A stretch of DNA of 64,000 nucleotides from an uncultured virus (IMG/VR IMGVR_UViG_3300005265_000028). Lineage: Duplodnaviria > Heunggongvirae > Uroviricota > Caudoviricetes. A program made the position numbers and the translations under genes. The notes under the pieces are model-generated. The model did no database searches and was not told the origin of the DNA. It saw nothing but the letters and a program-made list of their open reading frames with translations. Shown in pieces: positions 1 to 63,763 of this stretch (positions are counted from its first letter, which is position 1; the number at the start of each line of letters is the position of its first letter). The DNA is taken from IMG/VR virus record IMGVR_UViG_3300005265_000028, one strand, 5' to 3'.

Positions 1-3000
1 GCTGATTTCAGGAAATTCGATTTGATACGCAGCCTGATGTTTGGTACTAAACGATACGTAGAGTTCAAAGACTCTATGTATTATTACGCTCAGGATGTTA
101 ACTTTATCAGTTACCTGAGAGCATTAGATGACGAACCTATACGTGAGTACCAGAAACTAGCTGGCAAGATGAGCAAGATAATAAACGAGCGTGAAAAGGG
201 CAGAACCATAGCACCAGAGGTTGTAGAAGCGCAAGTGGAGCTGATACTAGCGCGTGTCCACAAGGAACTCGACGTCAGGCTCGAACGATTGTTACAAAAA
301 GATAATATCACATTACACAGACCGTTCCTTAAGCTCGATGAACGATTGGGGCTCAGACGGATACGAACGGATAGCATGGAGAAGGCTGCAGCTGATATTA
401 ACATCATACTATCTCAGCTGACTAAACGTATCTATGGCGAGAAAGCTGAAACGATACCAGCTGGTCGTATGGCTAAACGGTTACTACTGCATGCTAGTAA
501 AGAAGAAGTCGCCGAGATGTTGCAACGTGGCGCTGCAGAAAGCACTGCACGTACTGTCGGCGATGCTGTGATAGAATCTTTCGTAAAGAAAGGGAAACTA
601 ACAGTCGGGTCTAAAAGTATACTGGGAAGCGCTATAATAAGCTCAGCTGGTATGCAAGCGTTTGAACGATTCAGAAAACAATTCGAAGCAACAAGCGGTC
701 AGCTGAAGAAAGATAGTTCAGATGTCGGGTCGTTAATAGCAGAAGCGTTATACAAAGCTAAGATAACGACACCTGAGCAATACTTCGCACCTAAGTTGAA
801 TAAACAAACATTCGAGAAGATAAAGGAACGTGCACTTGAGCTCGCGAAGATGCATGAGTCGTTAGAGGGGAATGTGTCGAAACTGGCTAGCAAACTCAAG
901 GTGCAGAGTATAGAATACAAATCGTTACTACCGTATTACAGAAAAGCTCTGAAGTTCGATCGGAACGAGATAGCAAAGGATATTAATTATCTGTTCAAAT
1001 ACATACAGCATAGTGTTGGGGACAACATAAATGTTATGATGCGAGTGGTACATGGCGGTAAGAACGTTCAGATAGGTGTATTGTCTGAACGTTCTATTGA
1101 AGCTGCCAGAACATTCGTATCAGGCACAGCTGGCGATGTTATAAAGCCACAGCGCATATATTCAGCTGAAGCTAATATACTCAACCTGATAGATATACCT
1201 ATACCGGGCACAGAAGAAGTTACAGTTGCTGGTCGTAAGTTATCTAATATGGTGTTCGCACAGTATCCAGCTGAGCTGGCACGCAAGTTCAATCTGTTAG
1301 GCACGACGGAGGATCTGTCACGTCTATCAGATGCCGCTATAAGACGCAGGTTAGTCAAACAAGGAGTTATAAAAGAGAAGGATTACTACACATTAACTGA
1401 TATAATGATGTCTGTATATAAAGATCAAACGTTATGGCGTAATGTCAAACGTAAGAGTTATCGTATGTATGAAGTAGCGCGTGAATACGAACAAGTAATT
1501 GATTACGAAGCGAAACGGAAGCTGCGGGAAGAGTATCTACGTTTGAGTCGTGAGATAAATACTATGTTCAATATGAGACGTAACGAGGTTGTGAAGCTGT
1601 TGTCACATGTTCAGAGTCCGGAACGTTGGCTCGAAACAATAATGGGCGAACATGCAATCGAATTAGCTTCACAGACTGGTTCGATGTCTGATGTGTTCAA
1701 GAATACATTGATACATTATCCTGATATAGCTTCAGCGTTCGGTACAGAGAAGATAAAAGCGTTAATAGAGAATGTTGCGGAAACATTAAAAGACAAGAGT
1801 AATATCGGTCGTCTATGGGGACGAGTTGAAAAGGAAATCAAAGGTAACGTGTATCCGATAGACCTATCGGCGTTATTCCCGTATGGTCGCGAGACCAACC
1901 CTCAGTCGCCACGTATCGAACAGATGTTGAGACACCATATGCTTGAGACACATGAGGGTGGTATAAAGAACGTGCCGTATGCAGAAACTGAATACATGCG
2001 TGAATACAAAGCTATCGCTAAGGAGGTACGTAAGAAACATAACCTACGCGAAGCTCAGAGCCAGATGCCGATGGTTGTTGGGTTAGCTGATGTTGATGAT
2101 CAGCTGATACGTTACATCGAGAAGAACTACGGTTACAGACCGCTTGGCGCTACGACTATAGAGAGCCGTGCTATAGTGTCATCGAGCGTTATGGAGCGTT
2201 ACACGATAACAGATGAGTTACACAAAACTATCGCGAACACAATAGTGCATAATGTTCATGGTAAACCAGTCGAACGTAAAGTCGGCGATGTGATAGAGCA
2301 CGGAGCTTTATTGGGTTACACTAAAGAGGGTCAGGAAATACGGTTCATCCATCCGTTCCAGGAACAAGCTAAATACATAGGCGATTACCTCATGGAGCTA
2401 ACTGGCGACAAGAGGGTTGTGCAACGGCAGCTGCAAGGTTTGAAAGCTGGTCAGGCACGTATAGCAGCCATTGAGACTATGGCTGGTGGCACTAAACGTT
2501 ATAAGATAGAGATACCCAAGCCATTTATTGAATCGATAGACCTGCTGGTGCCCGGTACTAAGGTTACAGCTGAGTTCATACGTAAAGAACATCTTGCTGA
2601 CGTCCTGCCGGGTTATATGGAGATGGTCATGTCGCCACAGGAACTAGCGAAATCTTCGAGGTTACATCCCGGTACGTTGATGGCTGGACATGTTGGCTAT
2701 GCTGTCGCAGCGTTACGTGACGAAGAGATATTACGGTCCAGAGCTAAACGGATGGGTCTGAAAGATGTGGATACAGCAGTTAAGCAGATGAGAGCTGAAG
2801 CATATGAAACTATAAAGCTGTTCACTGGTATAACGAAGGAGAAGCTCGATGTTACGAAACCCGTGTTAACACCGATTTCGTTACCGAAGGAAGAAGCTAA
2901 AGCAGCAATCGAAGCAGCTAGCAAGATGAAGCTATTCCAGCCGATATATAACAAGGAGTTGGGTCTACATATCAAGGAGTTAGCATTCGATTTCGTTGTC

Positions 3001-5364
3001 AGTTCAAATATATTCTTTTCACGTACACGCGGTATGACCCCTAATATAGCTACAACAGGGGTTCGTTTCGGGCATCGCGAGTTAGCGTTCCTCGTGCAAC
3101 AGGGGTATAACGAGATAGCTAAACATATAATGATGGAGTTCGATCGTGAAGCTTATCGGAAAGGTAAATATTTCAAACGTGCGATCGACGCGCTCGCTGG
3201 TAAAGCGAAACGGCCGAAAGGGGTAGAAGCGTTAAGGTTAGAAGATTTTGTGCCCGTAGAATCGGTTACCGGCAAAGGTTACCAGAAAGCTGGTACTATA
3301 CTTGAAGCTATATCGAAGAGCGGTGGCTGGATCAAACTACCGAAGGAGATAATGTTCAACCCATACCGCACACGTTCACGTGGCGCCGGAGCTGGTAACC
3401 TCATAGAGCTAAGCGAGATATATGTACCGCCGGTTAGTATGTTCAAAGGTAAAGAAGGAGTATACGGCGAGTACGTATCAATAATCGGTGATCTGTATAA
3501 AGCTATGAAATCAGAGACACCGGAACGTGATACGTTACGTGCTGTCGAACGGTTCTCTGAACGTGTTGTAGCTGATGTATTCGGGAAACGTTCTGTACTC
3601 ATGAAAGCACAAGTTGCGGATATGCCGATGTCAGCTGTTGCGAGAGCTGCACCAGCTGTTACAGGCGCTCCTGCCACAATATATATGCATCCAGAAACTT
3701 TCAAAGCACAATTCGCTGGTGCTGGTGTGAGTGGCGAGAAAGCGCTTGAAGTATTAAAGATTCTGCAGAGCCGTGGTGAGGAGATGCATATGCTAGCTCA
3801 TAGGTTCCCGACTGCATATGCGGAATCGACTTCAGCTGTAGCGGTAAGGGTTGCGACTAAAGAATCGAAGCTCGGTCCGATAGCGCCGGGTGTTGTGCAT
3901 ATAGACCTCGGGTCGATGGCGCTTAAGCACGGAGATTTCGATTCAGATCTACTGGCACGTATAGGGTTATACAATATTAAGAAGGAACAATGGGAGAAAT
4001 GGGACGCCAAGAAGATAGCAGACGAGATAGAGCGCTCGCAGCTGCATAAGGAGATGAAACGGTTCCGTGCGAAACGTATAGAGCACGTTCAGGCAGCTGA
4101 ACGTATATTAAGAGCCAAGTACAGAGATACAGCTGAATCTGAACAGCTGAAGAATCTCGTGTCGAAATACGGGTTAGAGAATGTATACGAATCGTTACAT
4201 GCTAAGTATAGTTATATAGCAGATGAAGCGATAGAGAAAATGTCTGAGCAGGAGTTCCTTAAGGGTATCTCTGATCTATTGGAAGCCAAAGCTGGCACTA
4301 AGACATGGACTGGCTCGTTACACAACTTCGCTACAGCTGTATCAAGTATGGGTAGCGAAGTATGGGGTGGCAGCAAAGATATGGCCGCTAAGATGGAAGC
4401 GGTTACAGCTTTCTCAGGCGCGTTATCACAATCGATACTTTCAACCAAAAAGACTGGTGCACCACCAGTTGAAGAGTTGTTGTCGATACTCGGATCACGT
4501 AAGATATCAACATTACCAGAAGCTGAGAGCTGGTTCGTTGAAGCGTTAAAGAAGCACGGCGTATACGAAGATTTCATCGGTGTAGCTGGCAAGCACATGT
4601 TATTGTCAGGTGTAGCGGATACAGAAGAAAAGATAGCTGAGCTCGGACGTAAAGCGATAAGTGGTACATTCGAGATGTTCAGAGCGTATGCCAATATGAC
4701 AGGTAAATCCATATCGGTACGCGAATATGCTGCGAGTCCAGCGTTCAAACGCGCATACAAGAGTGAACATTCGCTGAAAGGGATATCAGTGATGGAAGCA
4801 GCTGAAGCTTTAGAAGAAAGCAATCTCGGCCGTACCATTTCTGGTTTATTGGCACACGGCACAGTTGGAGCTGATCCACGTAAAGCGGTTAGACAGATGG
4901 AGATAGGAACAGCGACCGAAGCGGTAACGAAAGCAATATCAGGTGCTGCGAATGAAGCGGTAAAAGAAGTGCTGGATAACTCATTAGCACGCAAGGTTGG
5001 GATAGGCGCTGCGGTTGCAATCGGAGCATTCGGGCTATTCTCTATGTTACCGCTTGGCGGTGGTCCCGGTGATAGTAGCAGTTACGGTGGTGCTCAGAAG
5101 TACATGAGTGGTTCAACGTTATCGCAATACGTGTACAACGATTTCATGTCGTCGAGCGGACCGCCAAGTTACGAATCGATGTATATAGATGTTTCAGCGA
5201 AATCTGATGGTACAGCTGAAGATATAAATAAACAGGCGTTACTTGCTATAAGGAACACAATGCCTGTAGCAGTTAAAGGCGAAATAAATATAAACGATAA
5301 TCGTCAACAAGTGCACGAGTTGGTCGACAGAGTACTCAACCGTGCGATAAGAAGGATGGTGTAG
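1..5364 (+). CDS. Giant virion-module protein with fused RNA polymerase beta/beta-prime-like motifs (candidate virion RNAP); 5' end lies outside the window
   Basis: Frame is open from base 1. Collinear beta-like motifs SALFPY, TIESRAIVS, KVGDVIEHGALLG, GTKVT, MEMVMSPQ..SRLHPGTLMAGHVG and GVRFGHRELAFL are followed by beta-prime-like GWIKLP, IYVPP, FGKR, AHRFPT and HGDFDSD. C-terminus has a Gly/Ala hydrophobic segment. Confidence 0.75.
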   Translation, partial: ADFRKFDLIRSLMFGTKRYVEFKDSMYYYAQDVNFISYLRALDDEPIREYQKLAGKMSKIINEREKGRTIAPEVVEAQVELILARVHKELDVRLERLLQKDNITLHRPFLKLDERLGLRRIRTDSMEKAAADINIILSQLTKRIYGEKAETIPAGRMAKRLLLHASKEEVAEMLQRGAAESTARTVGDAVIESFVKKGKLTVGSKSILGSAIISSAGMQAFERFRKQFEATSGQLKKDSSDVGSLIAEALYKAKITTPEQYFAPKLNKQTFEKIKERALELAKMHESLEGNVSKLASKLKVQSIEYKSLLPYYRKALKFDRNEIAKDINYLFKYIQHSVGDNINVMMRVVHGGKNVQIGVLSERSIEAARTFVSGTAGDVIKPQRIYSAEANILNLIDIPIPGTEEVTVAGRKLSNMVFAQYPAELARKFNLLGTTEDLSRLSDAAIRRRLVKQGVIKEKDYYTLTDIMMSVYKDQTLWRNVKRKSYRMYEVAREYEQVIDYEAKRKLREEYLRLSREINTMFNMRRNEVVKLLSHVQSPERWLETIMGEHAIELASQTGSMSDVFKNTLIHYPDIASAFGTEKIKALIENVAETLKDKSNIGRLWGRVEKEIKGNVYPIDLSALFPYGRETNPQSPRIEQMLRHHMLETHEGGIKNVPYAETEYMREYKAIAKEVRKKHNLREAQSQMPMVVGLADVDDQLIRYIEKNYGYRPLGATTIESRAIVSSSVMERYTITDELHKTIANTIVHNVHGKPVERKVGDVIEHGALLGYTKEGQEIRFIHPFQEQAKYIGDYLMELTGDKRVVQRQLQGLKAGQARIAAIETMAGGTKRYKIEIPKPFIESIDLLVPGTKVTAEFIRKEHLADVLPGYMEMVMSPQELAKSSRLHPGTLMAGHVGYAVAALRDEEILRSRAKRMGLKDVDTAVKQMRAEAYETIKLFTGITKEKLDVTKPVLTPISLPKEEAKAAIEAASKMKLFQPIYNKELGLHIKELAFDFVVSSNIFFSRTRGMTPNIATTGVRFGHRELAFLVQQGYNEIAKHIMMEFDREAYRKGKYFKRAIDALAGKAKRPKGVEALRLEDFVPVESVTGKGYQKAGTILEAISKSGGWIKLPKEIMFNPYRTRSRGAGAGNLIELSEIYVPPVSMFKGKEGVYGEYVSIIGDLYKAMKSETPERDTLRAVERFSERVVADVFGKRSVLMKAQVADMPMSAVARAAPAVTGAPATIYMHPETFKAQFAGAGVSGEKALEVLKILQSRGEEMHMLAHRFPTAYAESTSAVAVRVATKESKLGPIAPGVVHIDLGSMALKHGDFDSDLLARIGLYNIKKEQWEKWDAKKIADEIERSQLHKEMKRFRAKRIEHVQAAERILRAKYRDTAESEQLKNLVSKYGLENVYESLHAKYSYIADEAIEKMSEQEFLKGISDLLEAKAGTKTWTGSLHNFATAVSSMGSEVWGGSKDMAAKMEAVTAFSGALSQSILSTKKTGAPPVEELLSILGSRKISTLPEAESWFVEALKKHGVYEDFIGVAGKHMLLSGVADTEEKIAELGRKAISGTFEMFRAYANMTGKSISVREYAASPAFKRAYKSEHSLKGISVMEAAEALEESNLGRTISGLLAHGTVGADPRKAVRQMEIGTATEAVTKAISGAANEAVKEVLDNSLARKVGIGAAVAIGAFGLFSMLPLGGGPGDSSSYGGAQKYMSGSTLSQYVYNDFMSSSGPPSYESMYIDVSAKSDGTAEDINKQALLAIRNTMPVAVKGEININDNRQQVHELVDRVLNRAIRRMV

Positions 5365-5367
5365 CAG

Positions 5368-34130: not shown

Positions 34131-34408
34131 GGATACGTACTATATTCAACGCGCCTTATCGTGGTATCACGAGTTCATATAAACATAATATTATGCAGCT
34201 ATCGCTGTTATCAGCTGTCTCTGAAGCGATGGATTCAGCTGACTCAGTCGGCGATGCAGCTTTCGTTATGATCGACGATGTCAGCTCGATCGATATACAT
34301 GAGGGTAGTAATACCTATACGGTAAACAAGAAAGACCTTAACGGTATAGTATCAGATTTCGTTGATATGAAACGTTTGACCACATATAACGCAATAGGAG
34401 AGATATGA
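34127..34408 (+). CDS. Small structural protein
   Basis: 93 aa; YRGITSSYKHN shared with the next gene; ATGA overlap. Confidence 0.55.
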   Translation: MRIRTIFNAPYRGITSSYKHNIMQLSLLSAVSEAMDSADSVGDAAFVMIDDVSSIDIHEGSNTYTVNKKDLNGIVSDFVDMKRLTTYNAIGEI

Positions 34409-35943: not shown

Positions 35944-36157
35944 ACTCAAACGAGACACATCAGGACGTGGCGCGCGGTTCGAAGCGATAAATGAACTGAT
36001 GCCAAAACTGCCATCGAACATAGATGGCCAATGTCGTATATGCGGTCGGATGATAATGAGAGACAACACTCTACCAGCTGGTATATTCGAAGGAGAACTC
36101 AAAGCTAATGTTCATTTCAAGTGCTGGCAAAAGAATAGGCGCAAAGCTGCTCAATAA
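35918..36157 (+). CDS. Small putative Zn-binding protein
   Basis: AGGAGG RBS; CRICG...HFKC. Confidence 0.5.
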   Translation: MEIKIKGGKLKRDTSGRGARFEAINELMPKLPSNIDGQCRICGRMIMRDNTLPAGIFEGELKANVHFKCWQKNRRKAAQ

Positions 36158-36884
36158 ATTCTTTAAATGTCCGATGTTGATGTTCTATGACGATATCGGG
36201 CTACGTGACTACAAGGAGTATTCGTTCAACAAGTCGTTAGAGAACACGTTCAACGCGTTCTTCATGAAACGATACGACTATGTGAAAGTGAGACAACCTG
36301 AGATGCGCAGGTTCTTCTCAACGTGTTATACTGCGTATATGTCAGGCTATCGTGAGAGCAACAAATTGACTAGTAACGATGCTATGCGTGCGACTAATAT
36401 GATAAAAAAGTTCTACGATGTATTCGGGTTCGATGATGACAGCATAGAATACGAGGTTGTTGATATCTCAGCTGAATACAACGTAAGCTGTACCTGCGGC
36501 TCACACTATCTCATAGGCGTATTCAACGCGATACTGTATTGTGATGGGAAACATCACATAATATTATACGACCACAGCGCTCGTAGGCACGATAAGAGTT
36601 ACACTATGTATTCGTATCTGCCGACTATAAACCTATATGCTTATAATAAAGCATATACCAACAAAAAAGATTGTGACATATGGGTTTATTACACACGGTT
36701 AGGCAAGATACAATCTGTTAAACGTTCAGTTGAACAGATCAACGAGCTCGGTCGTTTCATATGTATAGCTAACGAGGCGCTGAACGGGATGTCCGTATGG
36801 CGTATAGACGATGAAGTACGATGTAACTCTTGTGCTCACAAGATGATGTGTCGCAATACCGGGAGGGGAGATAAAGCTTTATGA
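36108..36884 (+). CDS. PD-(D/E)XK (Cas4/AddB-like) nuclease-fold protein, catalytic motifs degenerate
   Basis: FFKCP, LIGVFNAI (in place of G.iD), LYAY, and C-terminal CNSCAHKMMC Fe-S-type cysteines. Confidence 0.55.
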   Translation: MFISSAGKRIGAKLLNKFFKCPMLMFYDDIGLRDYKEYSFNKSLENTFNAFFMKRYDYVKVRQPEMRRFFSTCYTAYMSGYRESNKLTSNDAMRATNMIKKFYDVFGFDDDSIEYEVVDISAEYNVSCTCGSHYLIGVFNAILYCDGKHHIILYDHSARRHDKSYTMYSYLPTINLYAYNKAYTNKKDCDIWVYYTRLGKIQSVKRSVEQINELGRFICIANEALNGMSVWRIDDEVRCNSCAHKMMCRNTGRGDKAL

Positions 36885-39164: not shown

Positions 39165-40022
39165 TTAGTTCCGAACAACATGGTTGCTCGTCATTATCAC
39201 AGAAGCTTCGTATTCGTATTCGTCCAGCTCTAACAAGTGTTCTATGATATTAAGCGCATAGTTGTTGCTGAATATTAGTAACGGCTCTGCGCTTTTGTTA
39301 ATGAATTCGGCTACATCGTATTCAACAGCAACATCGTTCGTATGGAACACTATCGTGTTGTTGATACGTTTATGCGGGACATGTTTAACACTTATCAGCT
39401 GATAATCATTAAGATGATATGCTACTTCTTTAGCTGCCGCGAAGAGTATCCTGTAGTCCGCATTGTTGTTATATACTGTTATACTCCAATTGTCAGTTGA
39501 TATAACTGTCGATTCGACTAATACATCATACACTTCGTTATCTCTGATTATATTCACGTAGTAATAACCGTATAACGTATAGTCAGATAACTTTATAGTG
39601 TCATCGTTATCAACAATAACCACCGGGCACTCAACCGGTTTGAATATCGAATGTATAGCTTCAACAGCTTCAGCTGAATCGATTGTCAGCTTCTTAACAG
39701 TGCCATAACGTTTAGCTTTGAAACGTAACACTTCTTTATCATCGAAACCGTAACGCAAGTATAACCTATACAGATGGTATTTACGTATAACAGTTCTGGC
39801 GATACGGTAATCGTGCTGTATTGTTAACGAACAATCTATTATACCAGCTGATTCCAACGCTTTAGCTACATTATAGAGCGCGTAACATACGAGTTTGTAA
39901 TGATGATACTTATTGTTACGTAACGCATCATACGTTAATGTCCAGTTGTCCTTGTCGGTAACCGAAATGTCTATCATTACTGTATCGTCACTAATTGTTA
40001 CTACGCCAGTCTTTTCGATCAT
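39165..40022 (-). CDS. Hypothetical protein (possible degenerate RNase H-like folds)
   Basis: 285 aa, AGGAGG RBS; weak NNNADYRILFAA and LTIQHD resemblance. Confidence 0.5.
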   Translation of the reverse strand: MIEKTGVVTISDDTVMIDISVTDKDNWTLTYDALRNNKYHHYKLVCYALYNVAKALESAGIIDCSLTIQHDYRIARTVIRKYHLYRLYLRYGFDDKEVLRFKAKRYGTVKKLTIDSAEAVEAIHSIFKPVECPVVIVDNDDTIKLSDYTLYGYYYVNIIRDNEVYDVLVESTVISTDNWSITVYNNNADYRILFAAAKEVAYHLNDYQLISVKHVPHKRINNTIVFHTNDVAVEYDVAEFINKSAEPLLIFSNNYALNIIEHLLELDEYEYEASVIMTSNHVVRN

Positions 40023-49733: not shown

Positions 49734-49761
49734 TAAAACATCTCTCCTATACAATTACAAT

Positions 49762-51221: not shown

Positions 51222-52943
51222 TTAAACTCTTACTTTTAATAGTTTCAATAACTTATTAACATCGAAACCACTCCGCGGTTCATATACTTGTTTCTTGCCG
51301 AACCCTATCTCGTTTATGAACCTGCTCGCATGGTTCGTATATAATATTACAACATTTTCTTTTGCTCTGGTCAATGCGACATAGAATATCCTACGTTCTT
51401 CGTCTATATCAGCATCCAGCATCGGTAACACATCTTCGTCACATGCTATTATTATAACGTTATCGAACTCTAACCCCTTAGCAGCATGGACTGTCATGAG
51501 ATGCACCCCTGAGCCGTTATCTGATTCGTCAATCGCTGTTATGTAATCAAGGAACTCTTGCGTATCAGTGAAATCGCTTGCTATGTTATATAACATCTGG
51601 ACACTTATCAGGTTATAGTCTATACCGAGGTAATCGACTATTATATCCATCTTATCTAATATATTCTCACATTCGCTTATCCGACACATCACATCACAGA
51701 ACTCCTCGTAGTTGTTGTAGTACTTCTCGATCGCGTATTCAAATAACGATTTATCAGCTGAGTTAGTCACAATATCAGCTGCTTTCTTTTTGCCTATACC
51801 GCGTTTCGGTTTATTCATTATCCTGAAGAACGCTATGTCATCAGCTGGGTTACTGCTAACTTTGAGATACGCTATTATATCTCTTGCTACTGCAGTATCG
51901 AATATATCGACTCGGCTATGTAACTTATACGGTATACGCCACTTATTCAATTCTTCGATGAGCCTGGTGGCTTCTTTATGCATCCTATACAACACAGCTG
52001 TATTATTCAGCTCTTCTTCTGTCATTATACTCAGTAATCTACACACGTTGATCGCTTCCAGCTGTTTGGAATCACAGTATTTTATTACTATGTCACTGCC
52101 ATGCGCTCTGCATTTGTCTACGCGTTTGTCACCGAACAACATCTCAGCACGATTATTTATCTGATAAGTATTCCTGTAGTTAACATTCAGCACTATCACG
52201 TTACTACTTTCGTCACGTTTCCATTCTTCCAGATATTCAGGTGAACCAGCACGGAAGCCATAGATACTCTGTCGTTCATCTCCAACTATGAACAAGAACT
52301 CGTTCGCAACAAGTTTTATTATCTCGTGTTGTAACCGTGATACATCCTGATACTCGTCAACGAATATATGGGTATGTGTATCCATAATTTCGCGTCTGAA
52401 CTCTTCATCTTTAATCAGGAAATAATACATACGCTCTATCATAGATGTGAAGTCTAACGCTTTGCATTTACGCATAAGGCTTATGTAGTCACGATACATA
52501 GCAAGCTCAAGTGACGTTATATTCTGTGTCGTCATGTTGCTTATGTTGAACTGGATATTCGATACCATACCGTTCAGCTGACGTGTCGTGAATGAACCAT
52601 ACTCTTTAGCTATATTCCGCATAGCAGTCATGTAGTCTCTTCTATCCCATATAGTGAAATATCCTATCTTCTGCCTCAGCCAATACAGACACCAGCTGTG
52701 TATAGTTGATGCGAATATATTATCGTTCTCTATACGCTCTTTCATCTCGAACGCTGCTTTCCTTGTGAATGTTATGAGCAATATATTCTGTTCAGGCACA
52801 CCTTGCTCTAGTTTGTGTCGAACAGCGTTTATTAATACAAAGGTTTTACCAGCTCCAGCGCCTGCTATTGTTACCACACGGCTAGCGTTACATCTTATGG
52901 CCTCTAATTGTCTATCGTTCGCTTTCATACTCTTCCTCTCCAT
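51222..52943 (-). CDS. UvrD/PcrA superfamily 1 helicase
   Basis: AGAGAGKT, ITFTRKAA, VDEYQD, VGDERQSIYGFR, NYR, MTVHAAKGLEF, EERRIFYVALTRAK. Confidence 0.92.
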   Translation of the reverse strand: MERKSMKANDRQLEAIRCNASRVVTIAGAGAGKTFVLINAVRHKLEQGVPEQNILLITFTRKAAFEMKERIENDNIFASTIHSWCLYWLRQKIGYFTIWDRRDYMTAMRNIAKEYGSFTTRQLNGMVSNIQFNISNMTTQNITSLELAMYRDYISLMRKCKALDFTSMIERMYYFLIKDEEFRREIMDTHTHIFVDEYQDVSRLQHEIIKLVANEFLFIVGDERQSIYGFRAGSPEYLEEWKRDESSNVIVLNVNYRNTYQINNRAEMLFGDKRVDKCRAHGSDIVIKYCDSKQLEAINVCRLLSIMTEEELNNTAVLYRMHKEATRLIEELNKWRIPYKLHSRVDIFDTAVARDIIAYLKVSSNPADDIAFFRIMNKPKRGIGKKKAADIVTNSADKSLFEYAIEKYYNNYEEFCDVMCRISECENILDKMDIIVDYLGIDYNLISVQMLYNIASDFTDTQEFLDYITAIDESDNGSGVHLMTVHAAKGLEFDNVIIIACDEDVLPMLDADIDEERRIFYVALTRAKENVVILYTNHASRFINEIGFGKKQVYEPRSGFDVNKLLKLLKVRV

Positions 52944-52981: not shown

Positions 52982-52989
52982 TTAACTCA

Positions 52990-53628: not shown

Positions 53629-54768
53629 TTATTTATTATTTTTATTGTTATATAGACAAACACTTTTTGCCGTTATCATTTTACGTGTCGTGTACTGATA
53701 ATCTGTTTTGATACCATCAACCGTTACAATATTACCTCTAACTAATACGTCCAAATAGTTATCTGGCTTATTGAATAAGTAACATAATATATCTCCGTAA
53801 TCGCTATTCAATACGAATTGGTGATACTTAGAGCCACGTGCCGAACGTTTATTCAGCTGAACATTTGAAATCACACCATTAATAGTCAATCGTTCGCCGA
53901 AATCTGTGTCATAGAAGTTGTCGCCACCATATTCTGTATTGTTGTAACCACAATACTCGTATTGTTTCTTCAACAGATACTCTTCTGTTGTATCGCAATA
54001 CTTGTTATAAAGCTCTACGATCTCTTCGTAATGCTCATCTGGCGTACCATCTGCTTGTTTCTTATATAACAGGAAATAGTTAAGATTATCCTTACCTTTA
54101 ACACCGAAGTATACATTCCTGCTGTAACTGCCACGTGAACAACGCATGATGAATATTTCTCGTAACATATTCGCACGGTTACCTATCGAATCCATAGCGC
54201 CACTGAACACTAATGCTTCCAGATGACCAAGCGTTATAGCGTTACGTGTACGCGCACACATGAGCATCGTATAAGCAGTTGATACAACAAGATGTTCAGC
54301 TGAATATGTCGAAGCTATATACAAACATTTGTATATTTCGCTATCTACCAGTTGTTTCAAACGTGATGGGGTCAGTTTGTACGTTTTCATACTACGTTTG
54401 GAGTCCTTTGATCTCCATTTCTCGTAGCTGGACCAGAACTTGTCAGTATAATCGCTGTAACCGTATACTTCCTTGTTTGTATTAGCTTTCTCTAACAGAT
54501 CATGCATATTCTTGAACGGCCTATTTGTTATCAACCATTTAGCTTTATCATAACCTATGGACTTAATCGCAGATAAAGAATACAGCACGCTATTAGTCTC
54601 TGGTATGTATACGAAACGGTGCATCGATCTGTTTATGTCAGGCGCTAACAGCTTCATCTTACGTTTACAATCTGCCAGTAACGCTCTGAACAGATCACCC
54701 TCGTCTTCTGACATAGTAGCAATAATTGAAGCCATAAGATGTGCCGCTTTCAAGGATTTCCCATACAC
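53629..54768 (-). CDS. dnaE: DNA polymerase III alpha, C-terminal part (finger end, HhH, OB)
   Basis: LLAPDINRS, YSLSAIKSIG, RPFKNMHD, LEALVFSGAMD, C-terminal OB fold; start uncertain. Confidence 0.75.
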   Translation of the reverse strand: MYGKSLKAAHLMASIIATMSEDEGDLFRALLADCKRKMKLLAPDINRSMHRFVYIPETNSVLYSLSAIKSIGYDKAKWLITNRPFKNMHDLLEKANTNKEVYGYSDYTDKFWSSYEKWRSKDSKRSMKTYKLTPSRLKQLVDSEIYKCLYIASTYSAEHLVVSTAYTMLMCARTRNAITLGHLEALVFSGAMDSIGNRANMLREIFIMRCSRGSYSRNVYFGVKGKDNLNYFLLYKKQADGTPDEHYEEIVELYNKYCDTTEEYLLKKQYEYCGYNNTEYGGDNFYDTDFGERLTINGVISNVQLNKRSARGSKYHQFVLNSDYGDILCYLFNKPDNYLDVLVRGNIVTVDGIKTDYQYTTRKMITAKSVCLYNNKNNK

Positions 54769-56887: not shown

Positions 56888-56900
56888 CTCCTCCTTTCCA

Positions 56901-56925: not shown

Positions 56926-57970
56926 AAAATTTGAATAAATGATCTATCTCTCCAATGAACCCTTTGTATTCATATTCTGTTCTGCATAGCTTCTTCAATT
57001 TATTATACAACCTGTATTTGATATATAACAAGTGCTGTTCGTTATATTCTTCAGCATCGTTCATGACTGTTTTGAAGTCTTCAGCTGAATGATGCTTGAG
57101 GTATTCACGCATATCCTTCGCTGGCAGTTTCATAACGAATACTTTACTCATACCATATAGCTTATCGATTATCTTCATAGCTGCTTCAGTGCCAGCGGTA
57201 TCGTTATCATAACATACATATACTGTTTTCCTGTTAAAATATTTGTAGCACCATTCCAGTTTGAAAGAGTTACAACCATTAGTATTCGTGACTGGCGTTA
57301 CGAATTTGTCTACACCCGCGCTGTAAGCTGCTAACACATCTGGCTCACCTTCTAGTAGAAGTAATTTGTTACTCTTAACCAGAAGGTTATGTGGATACAT
57401 AGCAGCACGGCTACCGGATGCCATAAGAGTTTTAGAGAACGGGTTACCGTTGAGTCTATGATACTTCACACATACGAGTTTGCTGTCGTTATTAACTGGG
57501 ATGACTAGTCGTTTACAGCTCTTATCGAGCCTTATACCAAGTTTGAAACGTTTAACTATATCAGTCGATATACCATATTTGTTGACTAACCTGAGATATT
57601 TGTTGTTATTAAGTAACCTATTATGCATCTCTGCGATATCTTTCCATGTAACATCCAGCTGTTGCTCATGTTTCACTAAAGTCGGAGCTAACAGCTTCAA
57701 CGCTTCTTGGAATGTTATACCTAACTTATCGATAGTCAGCTGAATGAAATCACCTGAGGTGCCACATGCTTTGCATTGGAACAAGCCGGTTGTAGAGTTC
57801 AGATACATACTCGGATTATTGTCATCATGATATATACATGTGAATACCCATTCGTTACCATACTCTTTTGGCCATTGCTCTAATACATCTTCGCAGAACA
57901 TCTGTTTATCAGTAGTATCCCATATCAGCTGTCTGTCGATACGGTTATTCGTATACATATTTATACACAT
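56924..57970 (-). CDS. DNA primase (CHC2 zinc finger + TOPRIM)
   Basis: CIYHDDNNPS...FQCKACG; EGEPD; YDNDTAG; KDMRE. Confidence 0.88.
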   Translation of the reverse strand: MCINMYTNNRIDRQLIWDTTDKQMFCEDVLEQWPKEYGNEWVFTCIYHDDNNPSMYLNSTTGLFQCKACGTSGDFIQLTIDKLGITFQEALKLLAPTLVKHEQQLDVTWKDIAEMHNRLLNNNKYLRLVNKYGISTDIVKRFKLGIRLDKSCKRLVIPVNNDSKLVCVKYHRLNGNPFSKTLMASGSRAAMYPHNLLVKSNKLLLLEGEPDVLAAYSAGVDKFVTPVTNTNGCNSFKLEWCYKYFNRKTVYVCYDNDTAGTEAAMKIIDKLYGMSKVFVMKLPAKDMREYLKHHSAEDFKTVMNDAEEYNEQHLLYIKYRLYNKLKKLCRTEYEYKGFIGEIDHLFKF

Positions 57971-58532
57971 CCTTGATCACATTAAAGAATTTTATCTCGA
58001 TATCTTTATTATTAGCTCTTAACACATACGAAGGATGATATAACATGTATACCCTGTATATCTCATTGTTGATCATAACATCTTTATGTTTCCCAGCTAG
58101 CTTCGTTATACCGCCAGTTGATTTGTTATCAACCACAGATTTGTAGGCCACATTCCCTAACACCAGTATCGCTATCGGCGAAACATAATCTATCTCAGCT
58201 GCTAATATACTATAACAGCTGAATATCGCATCATCTGGTGGTTTGACTATTGTGCCGTTGATATGCGGGAAACATTTGACTGCATTTGTTATGTAACAAT
58301 CATCAGCGGCGAACCCTGCTAGTTTGAGGTAACGGCGCAAGAGTTTACCACTCTTGCCTATGAACGGTTTCATCTGTTCGTATTCTTCTGGTCCCGGCGC
58401 TTCTCCTACTATTACTAGCTTCGCACTACCGTTACCTTCCGGGCCAACCTTATGAGACACGATACGATGTAACCGGCAACGTGTACAGTTACTGCACTGT
58501 ATACCGGTATGCAAATCTATGTCATATCTCAT
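57945..58532 (-). CDS. Uracil-DNA glycosylase family 4 (Fe-S)
   Basis: CTRCRL, VGEAPGPEE, PFIGKSG, NAVKC, LYHPSY. Confidence 0.9.
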   Translation of the reverse strand: MRYDIDLHTGIQCSNCTRCRLHRIVSHKVGPEGNGSAKLVIVGEAPGPEEYEQMKPFIGKSGKLLRRYLKLAGFAADDCYITNAVKCFPHINGTIVKPPDDAIFSCYSILAAEIDYVSPIAILVLGNVAYKSVVDNKSTGGITKLAGKHKDVMINNEIYRVYMLYHPSYVLRANNKDIEIKFFNVIKDVYKYVYE

Positions 58533-59425: not shown

Positions 59426-59428
59426 CGC

Positions 59429-59611: not shown

Positions 59612-59614
59612 TTA

Positions 59615-60595
59615 TTATTTAATTAATACATGTAAATACTCAGCAACTGAAGATGTTCTTTTATCGCTATGGCTGTTGAAACGTCTTTTGACATACGTGT
59701 AACGATCATATACGCCGTGTTTGGAGAACATCTTCTTTATCTCATTTAATGATAGAATCCCTTCGTCGTTATATGACATGAACACATATCTGCATTTCAA
59801 TCGTTTCAATAATTCGTTCAAATAACGTGCTGCGTTGCTCTTATAACACAGCTGCGAACGAATATAATTATCAGAACTGTAGTCTTGATATCTTGTGCTG
59901 CAACATTTCGCAATAGTATTCAATACTCTGTACATAGAACCGTATTGTCTACGATTATACGGCGGGTCTATATACACGATATCAGCTGAAACGAATTTGG
60001 TTAACTCGAGAGCATCTAGCCTGTATACCTTACCATTCGTTACATGCGATAACGGTAACGCTGGCAGAAACTCTATGGGCTTAACAGCGCTGCTCTTGAA
60101 TTGCTTGAGGTACGATTCATAGTTACAAGCTACATTAGCGACCCTATCAGCTGACTCTAATATAGATGCTACCACGAAATAATATAACCTATGACCTTCG
60201 TATCTGCGCGCATAGACGCAAGCTGCATCGAGCTTCATTGCGTTATGCTCTGTGTAATACATCTTACCGCCAAGCGGACTATACGTATTAGTTATATAGC
60301 CACGTAACGGTTTCAGGTTATTCAGCTGATTAATGATATCAACACACTCCTGTTGCGTATCAGCATCTAATGATAAGCCTATGTAGTTATTCGCTAACAC
60401 GTATGAGAACAACTCGATATCATTAGCTATAACACCATTGCATTCGTACATACGTTGTGCTACAACAGTAGTGCCTGCCATTATGTCAAGGAAACTATGG
60501 TTCTCTAACTTGCCATCGATAGTCCTTATGATAGTGTTATATATGAACTCCAGAACGCTTAGCTTAGAGCCAATAAAATTTAATACTTTCTTCAT
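59615..60595 (-). CDS. N6-adenine DNA methyltransferase (M.NlaIII/M.HpyI-like)
   Basis: NFIGSK, DIMAGT, ANDIE, ASILESADRVAN, YIDPPYNRRQYG, MSYNDEG; ATGA overlap with dut. Confidence 0.88.
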   Translation of the reverse strand: MKKVLNFIGSKLSVLEFIYNTIIRTIDGKLENHSFLDIMAGTTVVAQRMYECNGVIANDIELFSYVLANNYIGLSLDADTQQECVDIINQLNNLKPLRGYITNTYSPLGGKMYYTEHNAMKLDAACVYARRYEGHRLYYFVVASILESADRVANVACNYESYLKQFKSSAVKPIEFLPALPLSHVTNGKVYRLDALELTKFVSADIVYIDPPYNRRQYGSMYRVLNTIAKCCSTRYQDYSSDNYIRSQLCYKSNAARYLNELLKRLKCRYVFMSYNDEGILSLNEIKKMFSKHGVYDRYTYVKRRFNSHSDKRTSSVAEYLHVLIK

Positions 60596-61023
60596 CGTCC
60601 GGTTGAACCGTACCCACCTTTCTTTCTGGCTGTGCCGCCTAACTGTGTGGACAGCTTCCATTCCACATCCTCTACCTTACAGAACACAGCTTGCGCTATT
60701 CTATCATATTTGTTGACAACATATGGTTCAGCTGAAGTATTGAATAATATCACACCTAACTCACCACGGTACCCGGAGTCTACTGTGCCAGGTGAATTGA
60801 GCACTATGATACCATGTTTTAATGCTAAACCAGAACGTGAACGTATCTGCATCTCATAACCAACCGGTATCTCGATGGAAAACCCAAGTTTGAATAGAGA
60901 TATTTCTCCTGGCTTCAAAGCTTTTGTATCTAACGAATACAAATCGTAACCGCTATCATCGTGGTGTTGTTTCGTTGGCACCACAGCATCACTATTGAGT
61001 AACAAAAACTTTATTGTCAACAT
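60592..61023 (-). CDS. dut: Trimeric dUTPase
   Basis: SGYDL, RSRSGLA, GTVDSGYRGE, RIAQ, RKKGGYGSTG. Confidence 0.95.
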   Translation of the reverse strand: MLTIKFLLLNSDAVVPTKQHHDDSGYDLYSLDTKALKPGEISLFKLGFSIEIPVGYEMQIRSRSGLALKHGIIVLNSPGTVDSGYRGELGVILFNTSAEPYVVNKYDRIAQAVFCKVEDVEWKLSTQLGGTARKKGGYGSTGR

Positions 61024-61895
61024 ATAAGTTCACCAACTTTCTTTAGGAATAATTCTACAAGCGGATACAGGACCGTATCCGCTGCTGTATACGCGAGTTC
61101 TATATCATCATCTGGCAATACATAACTATCGTCGTAACCGTTTATACGAGCCACTTCACGCGGTGTAAGTGGCCTTATAGTACGTTCTGGAGTAAGAAAG
61201 TATTTGTAATGTTTATGTTGCGCTTGACCATACGAATGATATAGCGTATAGCGTTTCCCATTATTATAAACGAAACCAAGTTGTACTATACGTTTAGTTT
61301 TCCTGCGTAACGACAACTTGGTCTCAGAGAATAACATGATATCACGATGCAATATGTTATAACGCCATGTCAGAGCAGGATGCTGCAGGTAATCACATAC
61401 ATAGTTAACGGTCGTATACAGCTGTTGTGCTCCGAATATATTTATATGCTGATAACTCAAGTTATTCATTATCGCAATCAGGAACAGTTTGCGTTTCACC
61501 AACGGGTAACCGTAGTCGTTATTGCTGATGAATTTGTATTGCACGCAATAACCGTTCGACGCAAGGATACTGAGCAATACATCAAGCGGTCGACCACTCT
61601 GGTGTGTTACTACAGTAGTATCAGCTTCTATCAGTATCGCTGATGGTCTATGATGCCTTAAATAATTAGCAAGGATACTCTTCACTTTATTATCAGCTGA
61701 TATAGTCGGCTGTTGCCGTAACGATACTAGCATCACATCGTAATCATTGATGTGATAGTTATGTTTACAACGAGCGATACTGTAATACTTACAGAGGTTA
61801 TTGTTAAGTGTTGCGTGCACAATGGTATTGTTAGTCTTTTGTGCAGCATGTATGAAGCCTGGGGCATTCAGCACTACTAGTTTCATTATTTCCAT
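61017..61895 (-). CDS. C5-cytosine methyltransferase-like protein, apparently catalytically inactive
   Basis: Motif VI RPSAILIE, VIII DYGYPLVKRKLFLIA and IX RPLTPREVARINGYDDSY are recognisable; FxGxG and the catalytic PC are absent. Confidence 0.7.
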   Translation of the reverse strand: MEIMKLVVLNAPGFIHAAQKTNNTIVHATLNNNLCKYYSIARCKHNYHINDYDVMLVSLRQQPTISADNKVKSILANYLRHHRPSAILIEADTTVVTHQSGRPLDVLLSILASNGYCVQYKFISNNDYGYPLVKRKLFLIAIMNNLSYQHINIFGAQQLYTTVNYVCDYLQHPALTWRYNILHRDIMLFSETKLSLRRKTKRIVQLGFVYNNGKRYTLYHSYGQAQHKHYKYFLTPERTIRPLTPREVARINGYDDSYVLPDDDIELAYTAADTVLYPLVELFLKKVGELIC

Positions 61896-61955
61896 CCAAT
61901 CATAAGTATTGATATTATCGTCGCGATTATAAATATTATGAATACTAAATCGTTC

Positions 61956-63327: not shown

Positions 63328-63763
63328 AATACACCAACTCCTTTGTTTTATATTCATAGTTCTTATCAAATATATCTTTATGCAGAAGCACTTGGTGTTC
63401 GTCTTGATACAAAATCTTGTTACTATTGATACACGATGTATCTAATTCGATTCGTATAATCAAAATGTTAGAATAACCATCGAGATTATGTTTCGCATAA
63501 TCTATCAGCTGAAATAATTCCTGTATCAAACATTTGAACCTGACCAAACTTCTCTTACGGAAGAAAGCGCGACTATCGAATAGAACTGGACATGCCTGAT
63601 AATCCGGTTCAGGTAGGTGATAAGAGAGACAGAAGATTCTGTTTAGCTTTTCGTTGGTAACAGAATCTTCTGTCAGATTATTGAAAATAAAAGCGAATAT
63701 CCCTAACTGTTTATCTTGCTCCAGTTTCACTTCAAACCTTACGAGCTCTTCCACGAGTATCAC
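63311..63763 (-). CDS. Hypothetical protein
   Basis: 150-aa tiled ORF. Confidence 0.45.
   Translation of the reverse strand: MILVEELVRFEVKLEQDKQLGIFAFIFNNLTEDSVTNEKLNRIFCLSYHLPEPDYQACPVLFDSRAFFRKRSLVRFKCLIQELFQLIDYAKHNLDGYSNILIIRIELDTSCINSNKILYQDEHQVLLHKDIFDKNYEYKTKELVYCVYSV

What the first reader, a model, noticed from the sequence alone, without database searches (positions are those of the whole stretch)
380..63520. Window-wide highly iterated palindrome CAGCTG / (TA)TCAGCTGA(TA)
Seen: hand count of about 21 CAGCTG in 1-5364 and about 11 in 17030-18230, where base composition predicts roughly one per several kb. It occurs in both gene blocks and in different frames (SAD/SAE/PAD, QLI/QLK), so it is not a single-codon effect. 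It often extends symmetrically: TTATCAGCTGATAA at 39392-39405, and TATCAGCTGATA near 28249, 29092, 44258, 58572 and 61691. Known: phages usually avoid 6-bp palindromes (this is the PvuII site), and cyanobacterial HIP1 is the classic iterated palindrome. Inference: a HIP-like signal maintained by a modification/repair process, or a dispersed binding site for packaging, genome organisation or recombination.
Basis: seen in the sequence. Interest (0 to 1): 0.8.

Follow-up and report, generated by a model that had tools for sequence, protein, structure and literature searches.

The report
Phage saturated with a palindromic octamer
A large uncultured phage carries the palindrome CAGCTG (preferably TCAGCTGA) about once every 300 bases, some twenty times more often than chance, even where this changed its proteins; it resembles the still unexplained "highly iterated palindromes" of cyanobacteria.

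Summary
CAGCTG occurs 202 times in 64 kb, against 11.4 in dinucleotide shuffles. A shuffle that keeps protein, codon usage and dinucleotides gives 82 against 197 in genes. The preferred form is TCAGCTGA, 82 copies, about 97 times expectation.

Sites lie in both gene blocks, in all frames and in non-coding DNA. They fill 197 of 299 positions where the protein allows the word. The proteins are bent towards it: SA[DE] 51 against 10 expected, while the reverse [DE]AS is 9 against 10. At 20 of 20 sites the nearest relatives (39-43% identical) have incompatible residues.

By density, palindromic extension and pattern of deviants it behaves like cyanobacterial HIP1. It is a different word, in a phage.

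The same octamer is hyper-abundant in two Bacteroidales genomes that share a solitary C5 methyltransferase. These are probably not the host. Unrelated viral contigs are also CAGCTG-rich.

The mechanism is not shown. My best guess (0.4) is a methylation-linked signal. The phage encodes an intact D12 adenine methylase and a degenerate C5-methylase-like protein.

The parts
389..63511 (.). Dispersed array of 202 CAGCTG sites, 82 of them the full octamer TCAGCTGA. Mean spacing 314 bp, median 239 bp.
   Evidence: nulls
39392..39405 (.). Longest symmetric extension of the motif, TTATCAGCTGATAA, at the junction of the two convergent gene blocks.
   Evidence: ORF ends 39164/39165
34212..34241 (.). Two of the five non-coding sites (34212, 34236), upstream of the capsid-like gene 34410-35669. 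The others are at 35882, 36075 and 41790.
59615..60661 (-). D12-class N6-adenine DNA methyltransferase (P0002) with a DPPY motif. Candidate writer of a mark in or beside the motif; specificity unknown.
   Evidence: Pfam PF02086 E 3.4e-23; sequence; no solved relative at E <= 0.01
61017..61895 (-). Degenerate C5-cytosine-methylase-like protein (P0001). It aligns with M.HhaI residues 104-294, including the target-recognition part. It has no Pro-Cys anywhere, and its N-terminal 75 residues match nothing. Candidate reader rather than writer (inference).
   Evidence: only itself found among 5.8 billion proteins; single-sequence model unusable, pLDDT 38.6
57945..58532 (-). Family-4 uracil-DNA-glycosylase-like protein. 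A second, more divergent one is at 41805-42542 (-). Listed because a base-excision enzyme is what a methylation-linked repair bias would need; no link is shown.
51222..52943 (-). UvrD-family helicase, part of the phage's own repair and recombination set. That set also holds a UvsX/RecA-like protein (42539-43615), a Rad52-like protein (52990-53583), and RusA/Hjc-like resolvases (46352-46966, 40142-41026).
36108..36884 (+). Cas4/AddB-nuclease-like iron-sulfur protein, with a second Cas4-like exonuclease at 38472-39164. Examined as a possible site-specific nuclease; it shows no resemblance to PvuII, MutH or Vsr.

Best explanation
What is shown. This is a HIP-like element: a highly iterated palindrome with core CAGCTG and preferred form (A/T)TCAGCTGA(A/T). 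It is maintained across the phage genome by a force that acts on the DNA word itself, not on codons or peptides. That force has filled about two thirds of all positions where the proteins tolerate the word. It has also replaced amino acids to create further positions.

What is inferred. I think the word is most likely the target of site-specific DNA methylation, by the phage's own D12 adenine methylase and/or a host enzyme. On this reading the methylated palindrome is used as a mark that is read at a distance, for example as a strand or self signal for mismatch or very-short-patch-type repair, or as protection. Sites would then be gained by repair biased towards the methylatable word, or by selection for having a site within a few hundred bases of every place. 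This is the model proposed for HIP1 in cyanobacteria.
For: (1) The force acts at DNA level.
- Enrichment survives a shuffle that keeps protein, codon usage and dinucleotides: 197 against 81.9, max 102.
- QL is written CAGCTG in 53 of 79 cases. [SPTA]-A-[VADEG] is written xCAGCTGxx in 137 of 194.
- Non-coding DNA carries the word too.

(2) The proteins are bent towards the word.
- QL: 79 against 45.8 in shuffled proteins. Its reverse LQ: 45 against 44.8.
- [SPTA]A[VADEG]: 194 against 90.2. Its reverse: 100 against 91.4.
- SA[DE]: 51 against 10.2. Its reverse [DE]AS: 9 against 10.4.

(3) The gain is specific to this lineage. At 0 of 5 and 0 of 15 window sites do the only relatives found (43/42% and 39% identical) have residues compatible with the word. 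Those relatives show no excess of compatible peptides.

(4) The anatomy matches HIP1. Deviants from the octamer sit at positions 1 and 8 (51 and 27 copies, O/E 25 and 14). Positions 2-7 have 0-10 copies. Density and O/E lie inside the HIP1 ranges of PMC4390886.

(5) Methylases are at hand. An intact D12 methylase and a C5-methylase-like gene sit in the nucleotide-metabolism block. HIP1 is likewise tied to a type II alpha m6A methylase and an m5C methylase (PMC4390886).

(6) Bacteria offer a parallel.
- Of 41 related Bacteroidales genomes, two carry 1220 and 818 TCAGCTGA. Composition predicts about 60, and many relatives have 2-15.
- Exactly these two share a solitary 400-aa full-length C5 methylase (95% identical, same neighbours). 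The next best match in the other 39 genomes is 60% identical.
- In both, CAGTTG/CAACTG is the rarest one-letter variant: 0.70 and 0.69, against 1.16 in a relative. This is the product expected from deamination of a methylated inner C.

(7) Spacing is more even than chance. CV is 0.90 against 1.01 +/- 0.056 for random subsets of the possible positions (P 0.011). Unused positions lie nearer to a used site (median 93.5 bp) than used sites lie to each other (134 bp). This fits a benefit that depends on distance to the nearest site.
Against: - No methylation data exist, and the specificity of every methylase named here is unknown.
- P0001 lacks the catalytic Pro-Cys. It has no relatives in the search made.
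- The two Bacteroidales genomes have no homologue of P0002. Their methylase is no closer to P0001 than M.HhaI is.
- The two genomes are sister species, so the methylase-motif association rests on one evolutionary event.
- Vsr is present in enriched and non-enriched relatives alike.
- In the phage itself CAGTTG/CAACTG is not depleted (2.0 times expectation).
- The known repair-driven case, Dcm/Vsr in E. coli, gives only mild enrichment (recalled, not checked here).
- The evenness of spacing is modest: P 0.011 and 0.049.
- For G015, the sampled 57 kb of ORFs do not beat the strictest shuffle (43 against 33.8, max 44).
Confidence: 0.4

Rival explanations
1. The word is an unmethylated recognition site for a phage or host protein that must contact the genome every few hundred bases. 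Its job could be compaction or packaging, loading of recombination or replication proteins, or a decoy that soaks up a host defence protein. Selection for coverage, not a repair bias, makes the sites.
For: Occupancy is near saturation and amino acids were replaced. This argues for a strong benefit per site. Spacing is more even than random, and unused positions sit close to used ones. P0001 keeps the DNA-recognition half of a C5 methylase but lacks its catalytic Pro-Cys, so it could be a pure reader. The phage has a rich recombination set.
Against: No binding protein was identified. The only candidate nuclease I could model is a Cas4/AddB-like end-processing enzyme, not a site-specific one. 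Known dispersed binding sites such as parS, Noc and matS number tens per genome, not one per 300 bp (recalled). The bacterial parallel points to a methylase.
Confidence: 0.3
2. The word mimics a host 'self' signal read by a host nuclease or uptake machine. It would be a Chi-like attenuator of an AddAB/RecBCD-type enzyme that works in both orientations because it is a palindrome, or an uptake-type tag. The phage packs it densely so that any free end is protected at once.
For: The same octamer can be a chromosome-wide feature of bacteria, at 1 per 3.5 kb in a 4.3-Mb Bacteroidales genome. The phage is about 4.6 times denser (1.28 against 0.28 per kb), as expected for a small linear genome that needs protection. 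HIP1 has recently been proposed as a DNA-uptake signal (PMC13756078, abstract only).
Against: All characterised Chi and uptake sequences are asymmetric (recalled). No host with this word is known for this phage. The phage uses Shine-Dalgarno sites (20 of 37 ORFs) while the motif-rich Bacteroidales do not (6 of 120, 2 of 49). A sample of 401 Bacillota genomes had no genome above 327 copies.
Confidence: 0.1
3. The enrichment is a by-product of composition, codon usage, or repeated peptides such as SAD/SAE in structural proteins.
For: 137 of 197 coding sites fall in one frame (xCA-GCT-Gxx), and many encode S-A-D/E.
Against: All four nulls are exceeded by a wide margin. The same peptides are written with the word in about 70% of cases, although codon usage predicts about 14%. 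The reversed peptides are not enriched. Non-coding DNA and the second frame carry the word. No information lies beyond +/-2, so there is no longer repeat unit.
Confidence: 0.02
4. The pattern reflects restriction pressure on AGCT (AluI-type). AGCT would survive only where the CAGCTG context is protected by a methylase, so CAGCTG looks enriched.
For: Relatives of the motif-rich Bacteroidales avoid AGCT almost completely: 49 against 777 expected in 200 kb. AGCT-cutting systems therefore circulate in nature.
Against: In the window, AGCT outside CAGCTG is not depleted: 377 copies against 233 expected for all AGCT. Protection cannot explain a 20-fold excess, nor the amino-acid replacements that create new sites.
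Confidence: 0.03

Closest known systems
HIP1 (GCGATCGC) and 'alternate HIPs' of cyanobacteria (Elhai 2015, PMC4390886)
   Same: Both are palindromic octamers with a 6-base core that could be a methylase target. Both occur hundreds to thousands of times per Mb at O/E around 100. Both are dispersed through genes in all frames and have symmetric extensions. In both, deviants sit at the outer letters. Both co-occur with an alpha-type m6A methylase and an m5C-type gene. In both, close relatives can lack the word entirely.
   Different: The word differs and is not GC-rich. It sits in a phage, not a cyanobacterium. It fills about 66% of the positions the proteins allow and measurably rewrites protein sequence; I did not find those measures reported for HIP1 in the passages I read. 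Methylation of the word is not shown. The C5-type gene here is catalytically degenerate.
Dcm/Vsr very-short-patch repair shaping CCWGG-related words in E. coli (recalled from the literature, not read here)
   Same: It is a methylase plus a T:G-directed repair enzyme that biases the genome towards the methylatable palindrome and depletes its deamination product. In the two Bacteroidales genomes CAGTTG/CAACTG is the rarest variant and Vsr is present.
   Different: The E. coli effect is mild. Here the excess is 20- to 100-fold. No Vsr was seen in the window, and the deamination product is not depleted in the phage.
Restriction-site avoidance in phages (PvuII CAGCTG, AluI AGCT)
   Same: It concerns the same word and the same class of 6-base palindrome.
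   Different: The sign is opposite. The distant relative Bacillus phage 0305phi8-36 has 0 CAGCTG in 50 kb, against 9.2 +/- 2.8 in the strict shuffle. This phage has 202 in 64 kb.
Chi sites and DNA uptake sequences (USS/DUS)
   Same: They are short words over-represented genome-wide, read by a DNA-processing machine, and copied by some mobile elements.
   Different: Those words are asymmetric and strand-biased (recalled). This one is a perfect palindrome, and no cognate machine or host is known for it.

Membership tests
Highly iterated palindromes (HIP class, in the sense of Elhai 2015) | Palindromic word of about 8 bases at hundreds to thousands of copies per Mb and O/E of tens to hundreds | tested here: met
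   TCAGCTGA has 82 copies in 64 kb (1,281 per Mb), O/E 96.6. The ranges in PMC4390886 are 300-2700 per Mb and O/E 55-228.
Highly iterated palindromes (HIP class, in the sense of Elhai 2015) | Dispersed over the genome, in genes of both orientations, in several frames and in non-coding DNA; not part of a longer repeat | tested here: met
   There are 5-19 sites in every 4-kb bin. Frames are 137/53/7, and 5 sites are non-coding. No information lies beyond +/-2. Only one of 51 genes differs in occupancy.
Highly iterated palindromes (HIP class, in the sense of Elhai 2015) | One-letter deviants concentrated at the first and last letters; extensions keep the palindrome | tested here: met
   Deviants number 51 and 27 at positions 1 and 8, against 0-10 at positions 2-7. 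AT..AT, AT..AA, TT..AT and TT..AA flanks are the four commonest.
Highly iterated palindromes (HIP class, in the sense of Elhai 2015) | A DNA methyltransferase specific for the word or its core is encoded in the genome | tested here: inconclusive
   A D12 m6A methylase and a degenerate C5-like gene are present. Their specificities cannot be read from sequence, and more than half of the phage genome lies outside the window.
Highly iterated palindromes (HIP class, in the sense of Elhai 2015) | The word is methylated in vivo | not testable with these tools
   No single-molecule kinetic or nanopore signal data are available. The runs found are kept as contigs only.
HIP1 proper | Sequence GCGATCGC, in cyanobacteria | tested here: not met
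   The word here is different. CGATCG occurs 12 times, O/E 1.24. The genome is a tailed phage.
Chi-like or uptake-type signals | Asymmetric word with strand or orientation bias | tested here: not met
   The word is a perfect palindrome, so no orientation exists. Known Chi words are not enriched: GCTGGTGG 1 copy, AGCGG O/E 1.16.
Restriction-site avoidance | Word depleted relative to expectation | tested here: not met
   O/E is 20.9.
Short interspersed repeats (REP/MITE-like) | Conserved sequence extending well beyond the core; mostly intergenic | tested here: not met
   The flank profile is flat beyond +/-2. 197 of 202 sites lie inside ORFs.

The most novel reading that the evidence does not exclude
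A portable 'palindrome-writing' system exists outside cyanobacteria. It would consist of a methylase with a partner reader or repair activity, and it drives its own recognition word through a genome until the word fills most positions the proteins can bear, rewriting peptides on the way. It would have converged on the same octamer, TCAGCTGA, in a marine-sediment phage and in a Bacteroidales lineage, and on CAGCTG in unrelated viral contigs. If so, the 30-year-old HIP1 puzzle is one case of a general, mobile genome-editing drive, which could be dissected in a roughly 140-kb phage.
Probability: 0.15. Interest if true: 0.9.

Novelty: new variant of a known kind. Interest (0 to 1): 0.75.

Why it matters
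Highly iterated palindromes have been known in cyanobacteria for three decades without an agreed function. This window shows the phenomenon in a phage, with a new word and in a more extreme form. Two thirds of all permissible positions are filled, and the proteins carry an excess of about 137 motif-compatible peptides.

It also shows that the same octamer is chromosome-wide in two Bacteroidales genomes that alone share one solitary C5 methylase, while their relatives avoid the word up to 600-fold. That gives two small, concrete test objects: a 348-aa phage methylase and a 400-aa bacterial one. It also gives a prediction that cloning plus methylome sequencing can settle.

Whatever the mechanism, a DNA-level force strong enough to override protein sequence matters for three things: how phage proteins are compared, how hosts are assigned from k-mer signatures, and how 'avoided' and 'favoured' restriction-type sites are read in phage genomes.

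Tried and rejected
Related genomes
- Megablast of 8.6 kb against phages found nothing.
- tblastn of the capsid-like protein found nothing.
- The Pol III alpha subunit reaches only about 32% identity, to Streptomyces phages.
- One virion protein is 27.6% identical over 26% of its length to Bacillus phage 0305phi8-36.
- The search for related loci found nothing with the Pol III protein or with the capsid-like alignment, in viral or metagenome contigs.

Rest of the contig
- An exact 40-mer from the window end was absent from viral contigs and metagenome contigs. More than half of the roughly 140-kb genome (contig length) therefore stayed unseen.

Whole genome and earlier findings

Host search
- There are no tRNAs in the window.
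- Four Bacillota genomes hit by that scan are only mildly enriched for ATCAGCTGAT, at 7-44 copies.
- 401 Bacillota genomes reached at most 327 copies.
- No host was found. This is no evidence that none exists.

Link between the CAGCTG-rich viral contigs G001/G002 and the motif-rich Bacteroidales
- There was no DNA match, except one 37-base stretch at 86% identity (E 0.0016) that is not in a repeat array. I treat it as chance.

Candidate site-specific nuclease
- The weak PD-(D/E)XK hit at 36108-36884 was modelled (pLDDT 80.9). It resembles Cas4/AddB/Dna2 nucleases, not PvuII, MutH or Vsr.
- Pfam at E <= 5 on 19 unannotated ORFs gave nothing useful.

P0001 structure
- The single-sequence model was unusable (pLDDT 38.6), so no fold search was made.

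Site conservation in the 82-85% identical relative seen in run X2
- The variant table showed 40 of 452 rows, and none overlapped a motif site. No conclusion is possible.

Periodicity
- Pair distances up to 200 bp show no 10-11-bp phase.

Motif-free islands as signs of recent gene gain
- Only small genes lack sites, and none differs significantly from the rest.

Literature
- I searched for CAGCTG or TCAGCTGA with phage, palindrome, over-representation and methyltransferase, and for HIP with phage or cyanophage.
- None turned up a report of this word as an iterated palindrome. These searches cover only the held library.
Full report
**What the window is.** The 64 kb encode a tailed-phage structural block on the + strand (1-39164) and a replication, recombination and nucleotide-metabolism block on the - strand (39165-64000). 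The two blocks converge at 39164/39165, and GC skew changes sign there.
- Structural block: baseplate-wedge-like and virion proteins.
- Replication: a DnaE-type polymerase, primase, and UvrD-like and SNF2-like helicases.
- Recombination and repair: UvsX/RecA-like, Rad52-like and RusA/Hjc-like resolvases, and two family-4 UDG-like proteins.
- Nucleotide metabolism: ribonucleotide reductase, dUTPase, and deoxynucleoside and thymidylate kinases.
- Methylase genes: a D12 adenine methylase and a C5-methylase-like gene.

The phage is far from anything described. Megablast found no match. Pol III alpha is about 32% identical to Streptomyces phages. One virion protein is 27.6% identical over a quarter of its length to Bacillus phage 0305phi8-36. 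Two structural proteins have only two and one relatives among 5.8 billion proteins, at 43/42% and 38-39% identity. An identical protein is on record on a contig of 139,761 bases, so the window is under half of the genome. The one run that holds all sampled words is labelled marine sediment metagenome and may be the source. Near-identical fragments, and a relative at roughly 82-85% identity, occur in three runs of another study.

**The observation.** CAGCTG occurs 202 times, against 11.35 (largest 22) in dinucleotide shuffles. It is the most over-represented of all hexamers, at 20.9 times expectation; the next palindrome stands at 3.1. The flanks extend the palindrome. T precedes in 109 sites, A follows in 133, and both hold in 82, giving TCAGCTGA at 96.6 times expectation. 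There is a weak A/T preference one step further out and nothing beyond. After masking the word, no second motif of comparable strength remains.

**The refutation test.** It does not. For the 197 sites inside genes:
- shuffling synonymous codons within each gene gives 41.0 (max 54);
- shuffling codon order gives 19.4 (max 35);
- a shuffle that keeps the protein, the gene's codon usage and every dinucleotide gives 81.9 (sd 6.4, max 102 of 300). This null retains much of the signal by construction. For the octamer it gives 26.3 (max 39) against 79.

**The force acts on DNA, and hard.** Gln-Leu is written CAGCTG in 53 of 79 cases, although CAG and CTG usage predicts about 13%. [SPTA]-Ala-[VADEG] is written xCA-GCT-Gxx in 137 of 194 cases. 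Counting the third frame too, 197 of 299 positions where the protein allows the word are filled. The third frame, which needs rare Cys or Trp and a C-ending codon, is filled in 7 of 26. Occupancy is similar in nearly all of the 51 genes. Only the 2507-aa gene is lower, at 18 of 41. Five sites lie in the small non-coding fraction.

The proteins themselves are skewed:

| Peptide | Observed | Shuffled proteins | Reverse peptide | Observed | Shuffled |
|---|---|---|---|---|---|
| QL | 79 | 45.8 | LQ | 45 | 44.8 |
| [SPTA]A[VADEG] | 194 | 90.2 | [VADEG]A[SPTA] | 100 | 91.4 |
| SA[DE] | 51 | 10.2 | [DE]AS | 9 | 10.4 |

That is an excess of about 137 motif-compatible peptides. At the 5 sites in the capsid-like protein and the 15 in a 1211-aa virion protein, the relatives carry residues that cannot encode the word in 20 of 20 cases. 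Typically they have Ser, Thr or Asn where the window has Ala. The relatives show no excess of compatible peptides. The word was therefore accumulated in this lineage after it split from those relatives, partly by amino-acid replacement.

**Distribution.** Mean spacing is 314 bp and median 239 bp. Every 4-kb bin has 5-19 sites, and there is no helical phase. Spacing is slightly more even than chance. CV is 0.90 against 1.01 +/- 0.056 for random subsets of the possible positions (P 0.011), and 0.887 against 0.99 for uniform placement (P 0.049). Unused possible positions lie closer to a used site (median 93.5 bp) than used sites lie to each other (134 bp). This modest effect suggests that a site is worth less when another is near.

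**Comparison with HIP1.** From passages of Elhai 2015 (PMC4390886), HIP1 occurs at 300-2700 per Mb with O/E 55-228. It has symmetric extensions and shows one-letter deviants mostly at its first and last letters. It co-occurs with an alpha-type m6A methylase (GATC) and an m5C methylase (CGATCG), and is replaced in some genomes by other palindromes that have their own methylases.

The window matches each descriptive point. It has 1,281 octamers per Mb at O/E 97. Deviants number 51 and 27 at positions 1 and 8, against 0-10 at positions 2-7. Its extensions are symmetric. It also encodes a D12 (alpha-type) adenine methylase with an intact DPPY motif.

Its C5-methylase-like protein aligns with M.HhaI residues 104-294, including the target-recognition part (E 4e-11). 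But it contains no Pro-Cys at all, and its first 75 residues match no family model. By recalled knowledge of the family, that region is where the cofactor loop and the catalytic cysteine lie. Neither upstream ORF supplies them. It is not HIP1: the word and the organism differ, and methylation is untested.

**The word elsewhere.** The distant relative 0305phi8-36 has no CAGCTG in 50 kb, against 9.2 +/- 2.8 in the strict shuffle.

A scan of viral contigs for three close copies returned mostly repeat-rich genes. It also returned unrelated contigs with dispersed enrichment:
- G001: 97 sites in 31 kb, against 10.6 in shuffles.
- G002: 57 sites in 26 kb, against 8.0.
- G003: 28 sites in 11 kb, 11 of them the full octamer, together with a GATC excess.

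G001 and G002 pass the strict shuffle (87 against 35.0, and 54 against 24.4). They share no protein with the window. Their flank preferences differ, and they lack Shine-Dalgarno sites.

It hit one Bacteroidales genome seven times. That genome, G006, has 1220 TCAGCTGA in 4.3 Mb, where composition predicts about 60; the reversed-word control scored 1. Among its 40 closest relatives one more, G015, has 818. A few have 100-180, and many have 2-15. Among 401 genomes spread over the order, the next highest count is 264.

In 191 kb of G006, CAGCTG is the top palindromic hexamer (219, about 5 times expectation). Flanks are T in 61% and A in 60% of sites, and ATCAGCTGAT stands at 152 times expectation. 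A relative, G013, has AGCT at 0.06 and CAGCTG at 0.09 of expectation.

Occupancy of QL and xAx positions spans the full range:

| Genome | Positions filled | Share |
|---|---|---|
| 0305phi8-36 | 0 of 114 | 0% |
| G013 | 2 of 559 | 0.4% |
| G015 | 35 of 175 | 20% |
| G006 | 173 of 545 | 32% |
| G002 | 51 of 126 | 40% |
| G001 | 75 of 150 | 50% |
| Window | 190 of 273 | 70% |

The window is the extreme case.

**A methylase that goes with the word in bacteria.** G006 and G015, and only they among the 41, carry a 400-aa full-length C5 methylase (Pfam E 6e-87). The two copies are 95% identical and sit between a sodium:solute symporter and an ABC-F ATPase, with no nuclease beside them. The next best match in the other genomes is 60% identical, in a genome with an ordinary count.

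In both genomes CAGTTG/CAACTG is the rarest one-letter variant of the core, at 0.70 and 0.69 against 1.16 in G013. This is the word a deaminated methyl-C would give.

The caveats are real. The two genomes are sister species, so this is one event. Vsr is present in enriched and non-enriched relatives alike. The enzyme's specificity is unknown. The phage's P0002 has no homologue there.

**Are these Bacteroidales the host? Probably not.** Shine-Dalgarno-like words precede 20 of 37 long ATG-started ORFs in the window. The figure is 18 of 29 in the Bacillus phage, but only 6 of 120, 2 of 49 and 2 of 127 in the three Bacteroidales samples. Tetranucleotide profiles correlate poorly (r 0.33). No motif-rich genome was found among 401 Bacillota. 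The host is unknown, and the same octamer seems to have arisen independently.

**Mechanism.** Shown: a DNA-level, frame-independent, lineage-specific force that nearly saturates the genome and overrides protein sequence. Not shown: what reads or writes the word.

I rank a methylation-linked signal first (0.4). The reasons are the HIP1 precedent, the methylase genes in the phage, the methylase-motif pairing in bacteria, and the distance-dependent spacing.

An unmethylated protein-binding array comes second (0.3). The catalytically degenerate C5-like protein is a conceivable reader, but nothing supports binding.

A palindromic Chi- or uptake-like self signal is third (0.1).

Composition or peptide artefacts, and a protected-context effect of AGCT restriction, are contradicted by the data.

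I looked for a site-specific nuclease and found only Cas4/AddB-like end-processing enzymes.

**Verdict.** The finding is real, extreme and unexplained. It is a new variant of a known but unsolved kind of genome feature. It comes with two concrete enzymes whose specificities would decide the leading explanation.

Noticed in passing
window 1-64000: Runs and A/T-tract words are strongly depleted although the genome is 59% A+T. O/E values are AAAA 0.30, TTTT 0.29, CCCC 0.15, GGGG 0.33, AATT 0.33, AAATTT 0.14, CAATTG 0.10 and TTTAAA 0.07 (3 copies against 43 expected). Alternating TATA/ATAT and ATAC/GATA are about 2-fold enriched. CCCGGG, CCTAGG and TCTAGA are absent. The Bacillus phage and the Bacteroidales samples do not show the A-tract depletion to this degree.
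   Followed up: partly
window 53629-56887 (- strand): The DnaE-type polymerase is in two ORFs that overlap by 74 bases. One is 730 aa, with PHP, NTPase and finger domains. The other is 379 aa, with the helix-hairpin-helix part. This could be a true split, a frameshift or recoding; I did not examine it.
   Followed up: no
window 61017-61895 (- strand): The C5-methylase-like protein keeps an M.HhaI-like recognition half but has no Pro-Cys. The word-seeded search of 5.8 billion proteins found no relative.
   Followed up: partly
window 36108-36884 (+) and 38472-39164 (+): Two Cas4/AddB-like nucleases lie 1.6 kb apart. The first belongs to a family of only 7 proteins in 1.8 billion representatives. 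Cysteines are invariant (C21, CxC at 128/130, C219, Cx2Cx5C at 239-248), but no acidic or lysine residue is invariant.
   Followed up: partly
window 41805-42542 (-) and 57945-58532 (-): There are two family-4 UDG-like proteins. The first has a roughly 100-residue N-terminal extension and only a partial match to the family.
   Followed up: no
G013 sample, L281-L290: A Bacteroidales relative avoids AGCT almost completely (49 against 777 expected). CTAG is nearly absent (1 against 777) and GATC stands at 0.15. CTAG is also near zero in G006 and G015.
   Followed up: no
L128 (= G003, 11,260-bp viral record): A small element with ParA, a serine recombinase, primase, terminase and HNH is rich in both CAGCTG (28) and GATC-containing words (GATCAG 37, GGATCT 32). 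All 8 of its long ORFs have Shine-Dalgarno sites.
   Followed up: partly
L124+L125 (G001) and L126+L127 (G002): Two related, almost unannotatable phage structural modules have giant ORFs (2630 and 1441 aa). They show CAGCTG at 12-15 times expectation, with C/T before and G/A/C after the core.
   Followed up: partly
window 47604-49754 (- strand): The barrel domain of the ribonucleotide reductase large subunit matches in two stretches. Only profile positions 1-334 of 523 are covered by the best stretch, and a separate PHROG matches residues 572-693. This may be an insertion; I did not examine it.
   Followed up: no
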